From a virus, in IMG/VR virus record IMGVR_UViG_3300035698_026991, positions 1,202 to 65,201 of that record: DNA of 64,000 nt. One strand, 5' to 3'. Positions 48,024 through 50,445 of this stretch are shown here, piece by piece. Under the pieces are notes generated by a model that ran no database searches, was not told the origin of the DNA, and saw only the letters and a list, made by a program, of their open reading frames with translations. Position 1 is the stretch's first letter. Every line of letters begins with the position of its first letter. The translations under genes and the position numbers were made by a program.

Positions 48024-48326
48024 TTATTCTCTTACAGTAATAATATCTCCTTCAGCAACAAGTGTATATTGCTTTCCTTCGATTTTAATCTCTGTTCCAT
48101 ATTGGAAAGTAACTTCATTTCCAACTTCTAAATCTACAGCTATGTATCCACCCTCGTCGTCTCTTTTTCCTTTACCGACAAGCATAACTTTTCCTGATTT
48201 GATTAATTCATTTTCAGGATTCAAAATCAAACCACTCTCTGTTTTTGTTTCCTTATTATTAACTTCTAACAAAACCTTATCTCCTAATAATCTTATTCCT
48301 AATTGGTCCATTATATTTTTTTGCAT
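48024..48326 (-). CDS. groES: co-chaperonin GroES (Cpn10)
   Basis: 100 aa. LGDKVLLEV ... SGLILNP ... GKVMLVGKG ... pattern and length of Cpn10. Confidence 0.8.
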   Translation of the reverse strand: MQKNIMDQLGIRLLGDKVLLEVNNKETKTESGLILNPENELIKSGKVMLVGKGKRDDEGGYIAVDLEVGNEVTFQYGTEIKIEGKQYTLVAEGDIITVRE

Positions 48327-48535
48327 TTTATTATTTATGATTAATTATTAAATACATATTTCTGAGATTAAGTGTGACAAACTTATTGATTTAGAAAAAT
48401 TATGCCTACATGTTCCGATGTATTTTTTTTTCTTAATCTCAGAATATTGATTCAAGTCACAGGGGGTTCAAAACACTATCTTTCGATAATAATTGCCTTA
48501 TTGATTATTTAGGCAAGCCCCGATGACTTATCCTA

Positions 48536-48563
48536 AGTATACTCTTATTAATTTACTTGTCAA
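48536..48563 (-). promoter_or_regulatory. sigma70-type promoter (TTGACA-N16-TATACT) for groES
   Basis: Minus-strand CTTGACAAGTAAATTAATAAGAGTATACT. The ~200-nt leader contains the 13-bp IR TTCTGAGATTAAG/CTTAATCTCAGAA (48361..48444). Confidence 0.5.
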
Positions 48564-48586
48564 GTGATTATTAAACTAAAATAAAA

Positions 48587-48619
48587 AGCACTCGCATCTA
48601 AATTGTGCCAGTGCTTTTT
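48587..48619 (-). terminator. rho-independent terminator downstream of groEL (bidirectional hairpin)
   Basis: AAAAAGCACTCG...CCAGTGCTTTTT. A/T-run flanked. Confidence 0.55.
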
Positions 48620-48758
48620 ATTGTGAGGCGGCTTTGAAAGACCCGACCTCTAAAACGAAATTATCAACCCATTGTAATAAATAAATTGATAATCGTGTGA
48701 TGCTTTTATTAGTTACACACACATAATCATTTTAACACAGACTTTTAAAAAACAAACC

Positions 48759-50381
48759 TTATTTGGCTACAATTTCCTTTTCTTTTACTTTAGCCATAGC
48801 GCAACCCATTGTTAACAAGGTTCCACCTGCACTTGCGGCATTTTCTATAGCAGAGCGTGTTACCTTAACTGGGTCAGCGATACCAGCTTTGATCATATCT
48901 TTTTCAAATACATCGTTAAGAGCGTCGTAACCTCCATTACCTTCCATATCAATAACCTTGTCCAGAATTGATGATCCATCTCCTTTTCCACAATTCTTAG
49001 CAATATTCTTCAATGGAGATTCTAATGAATTAGATAAAATATCAAACCCTACCATTTCATCTCTTGTAAGACTTTTATGATCAGCACTTTTTGCTTTTCT
49101 AATAGCAACTGAAGCTCTTATCAATGCTGAACCTCCCCCTGGGACAACTCCTTCTTCAAGGGCTGCTTTGGTAGCATTAATAGCATCTTCTACTTTTAAT
49201 TTTAGATAATTAGTTTCAGTTTCTGTGGCTGCCCCAACTTTTATGATAGCAACTCCATCTGTTAATTTAGCAATTCTTTCTGAAACTTTTAATTTATCAT
49301 GCTTTGATTCCAAATTTTCTAAGTCTTTTTTAGCAGAAGCGATTCTTGCATCTACATCTTTTTTATTTCCCTTGCCACCAATAATAGTCGTCTTATCATT
49401 TGTGGATACAACTCTATCAGCTGATCCTAAATGTTCTAAAGTTATTTGATCTAAACCTATTCCTAATTCACTTGAAACAAATGTTGCTCCAGTTATAGTG
49501 GCAATATCTAGTAAATAATCTCTTTTCCTTTCACCAAAACCAGGAGATTTAATTGCCACGATGGTAACTGCTCCTCTTAGTTTATTTACAATGAAAGTTT
49601 GTAACGCTTCACCTACAACATCTTCAGCGATTATTATTAATTCTTTTTTACCTAATTTCATTAACGAATCCAAGAATGGCACCATCTCTGACACAACGCC
49701 AATCTTATGATCAGTGACTAGGATGCTAACATCCTTACACTCAGCTTCCAATCTGTCGGGATTAGTAACCATATATGGAGAAATATATCCCTGATCAAAT
49801 TCCATACCCTGAGAGATTTCAGATGTTATACCTACTGTCGGTGAATCTTCCACTGAGAGAACTGCATCAGTCCCTAATTTGTAAATAGTTTCTGACAACA
49901 TTTTACCGATCTCTTCTGATTCAGCAGATATTGTAGCAACTTGAGTTGTCTCTTCTTGTGTTTTTATTTTCTTAGCAGTTGATTTCAAATAATCAACAGC
50001 GATCTTTGCCGCCTTATCAATTCCCTTTTTAATTCCAATAGCATTTATTCCTACAGAAATTCTTTTAATCCCTTCACCAACGATTGCTTGAGTCAAAATA
50101 ACAGACGTTGTTGTTCCATCTCCAGCATTATCATTTGTTTTTTGAGCAACTTCTTTAACAATCTCTGCCCCCATATTTTCCAGAGGTTCTTCCAAAATTA
50201 CTTCTCTGGCAATTGATACTCCATCATTCGAAATTTTAGGAGCGCCAAATCCGTTATCATAAACTACGTTTCTTCCTTTTGGTCCTATTGTAACTTTAAC
50301 GGCATTAGCAACTGCATCAACCCCTTTTCTTAAAATGTCACTCGCTTCCTCGTTGTAAACTATTTTCTTTGAATTATTCAT
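48759..50381 (-). CDS. groEL: chaperonin GroEL (Cpn60)
   Basis: 540 aa. N-terminal GPKGRNVV, AGDGTTTSVIL ATP-binding motif, C-terminal GGGSALI/ADPVKVTRSAIENAAS segments. No GGM tail. Confidence 0.9.
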   Translation of the reverse strand: MNNSKKIVYNEEASDILRKGVDAVANAVKVTIGPKGRNVVYDNGFGAPKISNDGVSIAREVILEEPLENMGAEIVKEVAQKTNDNAGDGTTTSVILTQAIVGEGIKRISVGINAIGIKKGIDKAAKIAVDYLKSTAKKIKTQEETTQVATISAESEEIGKMLSETIYKLGTDAVLSVEDSPTVGITSEISQGMEFDQGYISPYMVTNPDRLEAECKDVSILVTDHKIGVVSEMVPFLDSLMKLGKKELIIIAEDVVGEALQTFIVNKLRGAVTIVAIKSPGFGERKRDYLLDIATITGATFVSSELGIGLDQITLEHLGSADRVVSTNDKTTIIGGKGNKKDVDARIASAKKDLENLESKHDKLKVSERIAKLTDGVAIIKVGAATETETNYLKLKVEDAINATKAALEEGVVPGGGSALIRASVAIRKAKSADHKSLTRDEMVGFDILSNSLESPLKNIAKNCGKGDGSSILDKVIDMEGNGGYDALNDVFEKDMIKAGIADPVKVTRSAIENAASAGGTLLTMGCAMAKVKEKEIVAK

Positions 50382-50400
50382 ATTCTTTTAATTTAATTTT

Positions 50401-50428
50401 TAATAATAATAATAATAATAATAATAAT
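50401..50428. repeat. (TAA)9 microsatellite
   Basis: Read directly. Lies between the groEL promoter and start codon. Confidence 0.9.
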
Positions 50429-50445
50429 TGAATTTTAATTGTCAA
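50418..50445 (-). promoter_or_regulatory. sigma70-type promoter (TTGACA-N16-TATTAT) for groEL
   Basis: Minus-strand CTTGACAATTAAAATTCAATTATTATTAT, about 35 nt upstream of the GroEL ATG. Confidence 0.45.

What the first reader, a model, noticed from the sequence alone, without database searches (positions are those of the whole stretch)
48024..50445. Phage groEL-groES in inverted order with separate promoters and a structured groES leader
Both a Cpn60 and a Cpn10 are encoded. The order is groEL then terminator then promoter then groES, the reverse of the bacterial groES-groEL operon. Each gene has its own CTTGACAAGT promoter. The groES 5' leader of about 200 nt carries a 13-bp inverted repeat (48361/48432), and a (TAA)9 microsatellite sits in the groEL leader. 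This points to independent regulation and a non-trivial evolutionary origin of the pair.
Basis: partly seen in the sequence, partly recalled or inferred. Interest (0 to 1): 0.55.

Follow-up and report, generated by a model that had tools for sequence, protein, structure and literature searches.

The report
Conserved structured RNA before phage groES
An uncultivated phage carries its own GroEL and GroES in reversed order, which is already known for viruses; the new part is a strongly conserved, apparently undescribed folded RNA at the start of the groES transcript.

Summary
On the minus strand lie groEL (50381..48759), an intrinsic terminator, a near-consensus promoter, a leader of about 200 nt and groES (48326..48024). 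The 13-bp inverted repeat and the (TAA)9 repeat are real. Two corrections apply. The groEL promoter reads CTTGACAATT, not CTTGACAAGT. That promoter and its microsatellite occur only in this phage among the relatives sampled.

The reversed GroEL>GroES order is already published for viral contigs (Marine et al. 2017). It is ancestral to a whole clade of uncultivated phages whose GroEL is closest to Candidatus Paceibacterota. In two Paceibacterota loci the order is the canonical groES-groEL.

The new result is in the leader. Right after the invariant ACTTGACAAGT promoter sits a 76-nt three-way-junction RNA (48529..48454). It occurs in 20 distinct loci, always after that promoter. It lies between groEL and a groES-containing gene set in every locus whose contig covers those genes, except one. 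Two of its helices show strong compensatory covariation, and about 20 unpaired nucleotides are conserved. It matches no Rfam family.

Most likely this is a cis-acting 5' leader that stabilises or controls the groES operon mRNA. A thermosensor role is not supported.

The parts
48759..50381 (-). groEL (Cpn60), 540 aa. The GDGTTT ATP-binding motif is present. There is no C-terminal GGM tail.
   Evidence: Closest homologues are 80% identical (metagenomic). Named cellular ones are Candidatus Paceibacterota at 57-60%.
50418..50446 (-). groEL-side promoter-like site: CTTGACAATT, 16-nt spacer, TATTAT. Lineage-specific.
   Evidence: No TTGACA-type -35 hexamer in the 130 nt upstream of groEL in 13 related loci.
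50401..50428 (.). (TAA)9.3 microsatellite, read as (TTA)n on the coding strand. It contains the -10 hexamer and extends into the short groEL leader.
   Evidence: L003 has only CAATTATTAAA at the same place, so this is an expansion of the usual AT-rich pre-start motif.
48623..48758 (-). Structured unit just after the groEL stop codon. It starts with the conserved box TTTGTTTTTTAAAAGTCTGTGTTAAAATG (48756..48728), which contains an extended -10-like TGtTAAAAT, followed by two hairpins. It is either the groEL 3' UTR or a separate small RNA gene.
   Evidence: Conserved in the window, L003 and L005 only. 14 of 53 predicted pairs, counted over the whole stretch including the terminator, keep pairing through changes on both sides. 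Fold z-score -5.65.
48576..48622 (-). Intrinsic terminator. The stem covaries between relatives, the 9-nt loop CAAUUUAGA is conserved, and a U-tract follows.
48536..48565 (-). groES-operon promoter: ACTTGACAAGT (the -35 hexamer TTGACA is 48563..48558) and -10 TATACT (48541..48536).
   Evidence: The 11-mer is unchanged upstream of the RNA in all nine related loci retrieved through GroEL protein alone.
48454..48529 (-). Three-way-junction RNA (3WJ). P1 pairs 48529-48518 with 48465-48454. P2 pairs UUGCC 48516-48512 with GGCAA 48497-48493 and closes an A-rich loop. P3 is UUAUC-GAAA-GAUAG, 48489-48476. J3/1 is UGUUUUGAA. The RNA starts at about the predicted transcription start.
   Evidence: Covariance model R1 scores 84.3 bits, E 9e-19, with a single copy in the window. 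It is found in 20 distinct loci. P1 is 95% paired with 7 of 11 pairs changed on both sides. P2 is 92% paired with 6 of 6. No shuffle of 500 reached the observed values. A MAFFT-only alignment gives similar numbers. The same fold is the minimum-free-energy structure of nearly every sequence folded alone.
48356..48447 (-). P4 hairpin. The apical loop is 59 nt.
   Evidence: The basal stem CUGnGG/CCnCAG is conserved with compensatory changes: A-U in the window, C-G in L005, G-C in L003, and A-U one position lower in L089. The apex carries unrelated insertions in relatives.
48327..48355 (-). AT-rich initiation region without a Shine-Dalgarno sequence (UUUAAUAAUUAAUCAUAAAUAAUAAA), directly before the groES AUG.
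   Evidence: The same TTAAT-type motif precedes most genes of the phage, and 71 of 76 ORFs lack a Shine-Dalgarno sequence. The region is predicted mostly unpaired.
48024..48326 (-). groES (Cpn10), 100 aa. The mobile loop keeps G-L-I-L.
   Evidence: 75% identical to the L005 GroES and 34-38% to Paceibacterota GroES.

Best explanation
The groEL-groES spacer of this phage is a compact regulatory region.

1. A structured tail and an intrinsic terminator end the groEL transcript.
2. A near-consensus promoter (ACTTGACAAGT, 13 nt, TATACT) then starts a second transcript.
3. The first ~76 nt of that transcript fold into a conserved three-way junction whose long P1 helix includes the 5' end of the RNA.
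4. A second long hairpin (P4) follows.
5. About 30 nt further on, an unstructured AT-rich initiation region leads into groES and the genes behind it (a 140-aa ORF and an SLT transglycosylase).

I propose that the 3WJ and P4 act in cis as a 5' leader. The 5'-terminal helix shields the mRNA from 5'-end-dependent decay. The conserved loop L2 and junction J3/1 form a pocket or surface for a factor, either a protein or a small ligand, that tunes translation or stability of the operon that supplies the co-chaperonin.

Shown: the anatomy, the conservation, the RNA-level base pairing on this strand, and the fixed link to the promoter and to the groEL/groES position.

Inferred: that transcription starts where predicted, that the RNA acts in cis, and what it binds.
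For: RNA fold:
- The 3WJ is the minimum-free-energy fold of the window leader, with z-score -5.2.
- It is also the fold of 16 of 17 relatives folded one by one; L098 needed truncation.
- Covariation: P1 is 95% paired with 7 of 11 pairs changed on both sides. P2 is 92% paired with 6 of 6. No shuffle of 500 reached the observed score. Sliding the partner by one column drops pairing to 45-49%. Nearly the same numbers come from a structure-blind MAFFT alignment.
- G-U and U-G pairs are frequent in P1 and P2. They would be mismatches on the other strand, so the groES strand is the one that folds.
- About 20 unpaired positions are conserved in at least 70-90% of sequences: L2 AAU..AAUA, J3/1 UGUUAAAC and C13. 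This exceeds what a plain hairpin stabiliser needs.

Position and linkage:
- The same 11-mer promoter precedes the RNA in every locus, including nine related loci found through GroEL protein alone.
- The first paired base lies 0-8 nt after the -10 hexamer in 15 of 16 loci.
- Where the contig covers both sides, the order is groEL, promoter plus 3WJ, optional inserted genes, then groES. GroEL identity to the window falls as low as 54%.
- The distance from the last helix to the first AUG is 22-38 nt in loci without P4 and about 30 nt after P4 here. The initiation region is predicted open.

Specificity:
- One copy per locus.
- No hit in about 110 unrelated loci, in two Paceibacterota groESL loci, or in GenBank phages.
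- No Rfam match.
Against: - There are no expression data. The transcription start, the terminator and the cis action are all predictions.
- No alternative pairing or expression platform could be found. The initiation region is predicted open whether or not the 3WJ forms, so a classical riboswitch mechanism is not evident.
- The first gene after the leader varies: groES, a MucR-like gene, the p128/p162 family or small ORFs.
- In L044 the RNA follows a DnaB-like helicase with no groEL in 6.4 kb upstream. The link may therefore be to an operon boundary rather than to chaperonin function.
- In L135 about 65 nt separate the promoter from the 3WJ, so a 5'-terminal position is not universal.
- P3 could not be aligned in register (58% paired), and no tertiary contact is supported by covariation.
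Confidence: 0.55

Rival explanations
1. The 3WJ, with or without P4, is a stable non-coding RNA in its own right. It would be released from the 5' end of the transcript and act in trans, for example by binding a host or phage protein. groES expression would then be mere read-through.
For: - The sequence of unpaired loops is highly conserved.
- The fold is compact with both ends paired.
- The RNA occurs in L044 without groEL.
- The downstream gene is variable.
- A strong dedicated promoter precedes it.
Against: - No terminator or U-tract follows the 3WJ or P4 in any locus.
- The next AUG lies at a tightly constrained 22-38 nt from the last helix, which fits a leader.
- No processing signal was identified.
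Confidence: 0.2
2. This is the first reader's idea: the 13-bp inverted repeat in the groES leader is an RNA thermometer, or a regulator-binding site, that makes the co-chaperonin heat-inducible.
For: - The downstream gene is a heat-shock-type gene.
- P1 carries conserved weak pairs (tandem G-U) and the lower P4 stem is AU-rich.
Against: - P4 ends about 30 nt before the AUG and does not pair with the initiation region, which is predicted open.
- The 13-bp perfect stem is too stable for melting in a physiological range. This is inference from how known thermometers work.
- P4 is absent in L004, L009, L033, L044, L074, L134, L135 and L136, and its apex carries insertions of 150-200 nt in other loci.
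- There is no Rfam ROSE or FourU match and no CIRCE operator within 3 mismatches.
Confidence: 0.05
3. The conserved element works at the DNA level. It could be a transcription-primed replication origin or a primosome loading site next to the replication genes, or an operator for a DNA-binding regulator.
For: - It always lies at the downstream edge of the replication module: PrimPol-helicase and a DnaC-like gene in the window, SNF2 and DnaB-like helicases in relatives.
- A promoter followed by AT-rich DNA resembles promoter-dependent phage origins. This resemblance rests on general knowledge.
Against: - Covariation keeps G-U pairs that make sense only in RNA of one strand.
- The structure starts at the predicted transcript 5' end.
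- There are no iterons and no local skew change. The cumulative GC-skew minimum is near 54 kb, at a switch in gene orientation.
Confidence: 0.05
4. The long helices P1 and P4 are processing sites for a double-strand-specific RNase. They would separate the groEL and groES messages and leave protective hairpins, as at the RNase III sites between T7 early genes.
For: - In most relatives no terminator separates groEL from the RNA, so read-through transcripts would contain it.
- P4 is a hairpin of about 20 bp in L089, and its apex tolerates any insertion.
Against: - The conserved promoter directly upstream makes processing unnecessary for a separate message.
- The conserved unpaired nucleotides of L2 and J3/1 are not explained.
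- P4 is dispensable in eight loci.
Confidence: 0.1

Closest known systems
Viral GroEL>GroES gene pairs of the virioplankton (Marine et al. 2017, ISME J, PMC5649160)
   Same: Viral contigs encode both chaperonin subunits with groES downstream of groEL. That study reported 70 of 133 GroES-carrying SERC contigs in this order and two GroEL clades defined by it.
   Different: - Those pairs are described as operons.
- Here the two genes are 432 nt apart, with a terminator, a promoter and a structured RNA between them.
- The clade is related to Paceibacterota GroEL, not to marine Cellulophaga-type phages.
- Two IMG/VR phages with more distant GroEL (44% and 31% identity) have no such RNA.
Bacterial groES-groEL operon under HrcA/CIRCE or sigma-32 control
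   Same: Same two proteins. The GroEL ATP-binding motif and the GroES mobile loop are kept.
   Different: - The order is reversed.
- There is no CIRCE element.
- In the two Paceibacterota loci read from among the closest named cellular GroEL relatives, groES precedes groEL with a 4-12 nt gap, and the RNA is absent.
Phages with only one chaperonin partner (T4 gp31 or RB49 CocO co-chaperonins; phage EL GroEL-like gp146)
   Same: A phage-encoded part of the group I chaperonin machine.
   Different: Those phages carry one component and rely on the host, or need no partner (EL is cited; the rest is general knowledge). This phage carries both.
5'-terminal stabiliser stem-loops of bacterial and phage mRNAs (E. 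coli ompA leader, B. subtilis aprE and phage SP82 stabilisers; general knowledge)
   Same: A helix that includes the first nucleotides of the transcript, upstream of an open ribosome-binding region.
   Different: Those are simple hairpins with little sequence constraint. Here there is a three-way junction with about 20 conserved unpaired nucleotides and a second hairpin.
Small three-way-junction riboswitch aptamers (for example purine, or glnA/glutamine) and orphan riboswitch candidates
   Same: - About 75 nt in size.
- A covarying P1 that closes a junction with conserved unpaired nucleotides.
- One peripheral hairpin of variable length.
- A 5' UTR location.
   Different: - No Rfam family matches, even at E up to 10.
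- No expression platform could be recognised.
- No ligand is suggested by the downstream genes.
Promoter-proximal put RNAs of phage HK022 (general knowledge)
   Same: A structured RNA encoded just downstream of a phage promoter that could act on the transcribing polymerase.
   Different: put consists of two stem-loops, not a three-way junction. No terminators needing suppression are evident downstream. This was not tested.

Membership tests
Group I chaperonin GroEL (Cpn60) | Full-length match to the Cpn60/TCP-1 profile and the nucleotide-binding motif GDGTTT | tested here: met
   Pfam PF00118 at 4.4e-61 over residues 24-525, and PHROG 5725 at 3.5e-136. AGDGTTT can be read in the translation.
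Co-chaperonin GroES (Cpn10) | Cpn10 fold profile and a mobile loop with glycine followed by three hydrophobic residues | tested here: met
   Pfam PF00166 at 5e-17. PDB Cpn10 chains match at E 3e-11. ESGLIL is present in the mobile-loop position.
Viral GroEL>GroES arrangement (Marine et al. 2017) | groES downstream of groEL on the same strand of a viral contig | tested here: met
   (portal, terminase and capsid are in the window). The order is conserved in every related locus whose contig covers both genes.
Viral GroEL>GroES arrangement (Marine et al. 2017) | The two genes form one operon | tested here: inconclusive
   A terminator and a promoter lie between them in the window. Several relatives have the promoter but no terminator. 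No transcript data exist.
Intrinsic (Rho-independent) terminator | G+C-containing hairpin immediately followed by a U-tract | tested here: met
   A 17-nt arm pair, 94% complementary, with a 9-nt loop, followed by UUUUUAUUUU. The stem covaries in L003 and L005. Function was not tested.
Sigma-70-type promoter | TTGACA and TATAAT-like hexamers 16-18 nt apart | tested here: met
   11 of 12 positions match at 48563..48536. The 11-mer occurs 4 times against 0.04 expected, always in an intergenic region and facing a gene. Activity was not tested.
RNA thermometer (ROSE, FourU and similar) | A temperature-labile hairpin that occludes the ribosome-binding site or start codon | tested here: not met
   P4 ends about 30 nt upstream of the AUG. 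The initiation region has a mean unpaired probability of 0.62. No Rfam match.
CIRCE/HrcA operator | TTAGCACTC-N9-GAGTGCTAA upstream of groES | tested here: not met
   No match within 3 mismatches anywhere in the window.
Riboswitch | Conserved aptamer with covarying helices and conserved junction nucleotides in a 5' UTR | tested here: met
Riboswitch | An expression platform that switches between alternative structures | tested here: inconclusive
   No terminator follows the RNA. No alternative pairing with the initiation region is conserved across loci.
Riboswitch | Specific binding of a small ligand | not testable with these tools
   Needs in-line probing, SHAPE or ITC.
Any described RNA family (Rfam 15) | Score at or above the family's gathering threshold | tested here: not met
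   Only a tRNA passes in the window. Nothing meaningful appears at E up to 10 in the spacer or in the same regions of eight relatives.

The most novel reading that the evidence does not exclude
The three-way junction is the sensor domain of a new class of regulatory RNA, either a riboswitch or a protein-binding operator. This class would be confined to phages of Candidate Phyla Radiation (Paceibacterota-like) bacteria and would couple production of the phage co-chaperonin operon to a cellular signal. The structured unit upstream of the terminator would be a second, separately transcribed phage small RNA.
Probability: 0.2. Interest if true: 0.8.

Novelty: new variant of a known kind. Interest (0 to 1): 0.55.

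Why it matters
Phage-encoded GroEL>GroES pairs are known, so the gene order adds little. What is new is a compact RNA that is well supported by covariation and matches no described family. It sits at a fixed place in the chaperonin region of an uncultivated phage clade that appears to infect ultra-small CPR bacteria. Almost nothing is known about gene regulation in that group.

The RNA is small (76 nt) and well defined, with 20 natural variants. It can be tested directly by structure probing, ligand or protein pull-down, and reporter fusions. It could reveal either a new sensor RNA or how mRNAs without a Shine-Dalgarno sequence are stabilised and translated in these organisms.

Tried and rejected
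Searches that found nothing:
- Rfam at gathering and at permissive thresholds, on the window and on eight relatives: nothing but tRNAs.
- ARAGORN on relatives whose P4 inserts look tRNA-like: nothing.
- CIRCE operator: absent.
- blastn of the spacer against GenBank phages: no match.
- Exact-protein look-up of the window GroEL: not on record.

Searches of limited use:
- The first DNA pattern for IMG/VR was too strict and found nothing.
About 100 of its 120 hits were unrelated promoters (mainly of one gene that recurs in gut and food metagenomes), so more family members surely exist.
- A promoter-independent pattern in IMG/VR found only one true member, which was already known.
- The word-indexed homology search with GroES returned a single relative, so the donor of GroES could not be addressed.

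Ideas tested and dropped:
- The RNA follows other copies of the promoter in the window: it does not.
- The host groES leader carries the RNA: not in two Paceibacterota loci.
- L2 pairs with J3/1 as a pseudoknot: no consistent covariation.
- The large P4 inserts of L003, L005, L007 and L023 are one homologous domain: they do not align.
- A hairpin in the window MFE fold covers the groES AUG: by my own reading of the sequences, it recurs only in the closest relative.

Alignment limits:
- MAFFT could not place P4 in common columns, so its pairs were read by hand.
- P3 is a hairpin in every sequence but could not be aligned in register.
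Full report
1. What is in the sequence

All relevant genes are on the minus strand.
- groEL lies at 50381..48759 (540 aa) and groES at 48326..48024 (100 aa).
- Both are full-length matches to Cpn60 (4e-61) and Cpn10 (5e-17), and to the PHROG families 'chaperonin groEL' and 'co-chaperonin GroES'.
- GroES also matches solved Cpn10 structures and keeps the mobile-loop motif G-L-I-L.
- Upstream are a PrimPol/DnaB-like primase-helicase and a DnaC/IstB-like ATPase. Downstream are a 140-aa ORF and an SLT transglycosylase.
- The window is a phage. 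It encodes a portal, a large terminase and a major head protein. The head protein is at most 32% identical to that of any GenBank phage.

- A 432-nt spacer without credible ORFs separates the two genes.
- It contains a terminator hairpin: arms 48622-48606 and 48596-48580, a 9-nt loop, then UUUUUAUUUU.
- It contains a promoter, TTGACA-16-TATACT, at 48563..48536.
- It contains the 13-bp perfect inverted repeat 48360-48372/48432-48444.
- The (TAA)9.3 repeat is at 50401-50428.
- The 11-mer ACTTGACAAGT occurs four times in the window against 0.04 expected. Each copy is intergenic and faces a gene.
- Two corrections apply. The groEL-side site reads CTTGACAATT, and its -10 hexamer lies inside the microsatellite.

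3. Relatives and the gene order

- GroEL has many metagenomic homologues of 54-80% identity.
- I read the contigs of eight of them chosen by protein similarity alone: loci L003-L010, L135 and L136. All show groEL, then a gap or one to two inserted genes, then groES.
- The inserted genes are a MucR/Ros-like protein with a homing-endonuclease-type repeat, a family of 128-170-aa proteins of unknown function, or small ORFs.
- The nearest named cellular GroELs are from Candidatus Paceibacterota, at 57-60% identity.
- Two such genomes have the canonical groES-groEL order with a 4-12 nt gap.
- The inversion is therefore real and old within this phage clade. As a phenomenon it is published: Marine et al. 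2017 found GroEL>GroES on 70 of 133 GroES-carrying viral contigs and defined two GroEL clades by it.
- GroES is only 34-38% identical to the Paceibacterota GroES, and the indexed search found one relative. Whether both genes came from one donor cannot be decided here.
- The dedicated groEL promoter and the microsatellite are peculiar to the window. In 13 relatives no TTGACA-type -35 hexamer lies in the 130 nt before groEL, and the repeat corresponds to a plain AATTATTAAA.

4. The main finding: a conserved three-way-junction RNA

Discovery and spread:
- Aligning the spacers showed that the DNA right after the groES-side promoter is better conserved than its surroundings, with paired changes.
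- A pattern scan of metagenome contigs added further members among many false hits.
- A covariance model built from 16 sequences finds exactly one copy per true locus.
- It finds none in about 110 unrelated loci, in two Paceibacterota groESL loci, or in two more distant phage groEL loci.
- It also finds the RNA in L134, L135 and L136, which were not used to build it.

Architecture in the window (48529..48454):
- P1: 12 bp with a conserved weak spot.
- One junction nucleotide, C.
- P2: 5-6 bp closing a 12-15-nt A-rich loop with conserved AAU...AAUA.
- P3: a hairpin of variable length, with a GAAA loop in the window and an AAA-containing loop in most relatives.
- J3/1: a conserved 3' junction, UGUUAAAC in most sequences and UGUUUUGAA here.

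Support for the fold:
- On 20 distinct sequences P1 is 95% paired, with 7 of 11 pairs changed on both sides.
- P2 is 92% paired, with 6 of 6 pairs changed on both sides.
- No shuffle of 500 reaches the observed covariation.
- Shifting the partners by one column halves the pairing.
- A structure-blind alignment gives the same picture.
- Each sequence folded alone gives the same junction, with one exception.
- Frequent G-U pairs fix the folded strand as the groES strand.
- No Rfam family matches, even at E = 10.
- GenBank phages have nothing similar.

5. Position of the RNA

- The invariant promoter precedes the RNA in every locus, including those retrieved through GroEL alone.
- The first paired nucleotide lies 0-8 nt after the -10 hexamer in 15 of 16 loci. 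The transcript's 5' end is therefore inside P1.
- L135 is an exception, with about 65 extra nucleotides between promoter and RNA.
Its base (CUGnGG/CCnCAG) is conserved with compensatory changes in about a dozen loci.
- The P4 apex is free to vary. It is 59 nt here, a pentaloop in L089, and unrelated inserts of 150-200 nt in L003, L005, L007 and L023.
- Eight loci lack P4 altogether.
- The first AUG follows the last helix at 22-38 nt in loci without P4, and at about 30 nt after P4 here.
- The stretch between is AT-rich, lacks a Shine-Dalgarno sequence and is predicted mostly unpaired.
- This initiation region is typical of the phage. 71 of 76 ORFs lack a Shine-Dalgarno sequence. Two Paceibacterota loci look similar.

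6. Distribution and host

- The strict promoter-plus-RNA pattern occurs once among 185,579 species genomes. That hit is a 5.4-kb contig binned into a Candidatus Paceibacterota MAG.
- It occurs once in IMG/VR, on a 97-kb viral genome. A second IMG/VR member turned up with a promoter-independent pattern.
- Together with the GroEL affinities and the shared lack of Shine-Dalgarno sequences, this points weakly to Paceibacterota-like (CPR) hosts.
- One locus, L044, carries the RNA after a DnaB-like helicase with no groEL upstream. The element may mark an operon boundary rather than chaperonin genes as such.

7. How it most likely works

Shown:
- An RNA structure on the groES strand under strong purifying selection.
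- A fixed position at the start of a promoter-driven transcript that contains groES.

Inferred:
- It acts in cis as a 5' leader.
- The 5'-terminal P1 helix is the arrangement that protects mRNAs from 5'-end-dependent nucleases. An RNase J gene lies near groES in both Paceibacterota loci read.
- The roughly 20 conserved unpaired nucleotides and the tandem G-U in P1 go beyond what a stabiliser needs. They suggest a specific partner, either a protein or a small ligand.
- I could not find an expression platform, so a classical riboswitch is not demonstrated.

Confidence in each reading:

| Reading | Confidence |
|---|---|
| Cis-acting leader | 0.55 |
| Free-standing small RNA | 0.20 |
| Processing site | 0.10 |
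| Thermosensor | 0.05 |
| DNA-level element | 0.05 |

The thermosensor idea fails on geometry and on the dispensability of P4. No CIRCE operator is present.

8. The other half of the spacer

- Between the groEL stop and the terminator lies a second structured unit, 48758..48623. It is shared only with the two closest lineages.
- It begins with a 29-nt box that is nearly invariant and contains an extended -10-like TGtTAAAAT. Covarying hairpins follow.
- The terminator stem covaries, while its loop CAAUUUAGA is conserved.
- The fold z-score is -5.65.
- It may be the groEL 3' UTR or a separate small RNA gene. Three sequences are too few to decide.

9. Verdict

- The gene order is a known viral arrangement.
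- The promoter-proximal three-way-junction RNA is a well-supported and apparently undescribed RNA family of uncertain function.

Noticed in passing
window 25990-27140 (+): About 1.1 kb without a convincing ORF, richer in G+C than its surroundings, with no Rfam match at E up to 1. It holds three consecutive long-range inverted repeats with related arms: 26709-26728/26835-26854, 26863-26883/26955-26975 and 26984-27001/27099-27116. The arms are 18-21 nt and lie 71-106 nt apart. This looks like a tandem array of large stem-loops.
   Followed up: partly
window 48623-48758 (-): A structured unit directly after the groEL stop. It has a near-invariant 29-nt box containing TGtTAAAAT (extended -10-like) and covarying hairpins, and it ends at the terminator, whose loop CAAUUUAGA is conserved. 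It is shared only with L003 and L005. It may be a separate small RNA gene.
   Followed up: partly
whole window: 71 of 76 ORFs have no Shine-Dalgarno-like sequence. 51 of 76 have a TTAAT, ATTAA or TAATT motif within 35 nt upstream of the start, usually followed by an A-run. Two Candidatus Paceibacterota loci are similarly poor in Shine-Dalgarno sequences.
   Followed up: partly
window 34486-35460 (+); L004 6914-7744, L007 11989-12813, L008 6976-7785: A MucR/Ros-like protein with a homing-endonuclease-associated repeat sits between groEL and groES in several relatives. In the window its homologue (58% identity) lies elsewhere. This suggests a mobile gene that moves in and out of the chaperonin spacer.
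   Followed up: partly
L003 3040-3240, L005 11930-12090, L007 11780-11960, L023 9430-9580: The apex of hairpin P4 carries structured insertions of 150-200 nt that do not align with one another. The L005 insertion contains a T-arm-like GGAAGTTCGATTCTTC, but neither a tRNA nor an Rfam family is detected.
   Followed up: partly
L044 942-1028 (-): The same RNA and promoter occur after a DnaB-like helicase and a 76-aa ORF, with no groEL in the 6.4 kb upstream. Two small ORFs follow before the contig ends.
   Followed up: partly
window 22385-22458 (+): tRNA-Thr (anticodon TGT), the only tRNA in the window. Relatives L062 and L098 carry arrays of 5-8 tRNAs just downstream of groES.
   Followed up: no
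window 4853-5211 (-, inside ORF 4840-5835): Nested 18-, 30- and 60-nt tandem repeats inside a 331-aa ORF of the structural module that has no PHROG match.
   Followed up: no
L007 1-4161: In this relative the RecA-like and SNF2-helicase genes both carry intein domains. The RecA one also has a LAGLIDADG domain.
   Followed up: no
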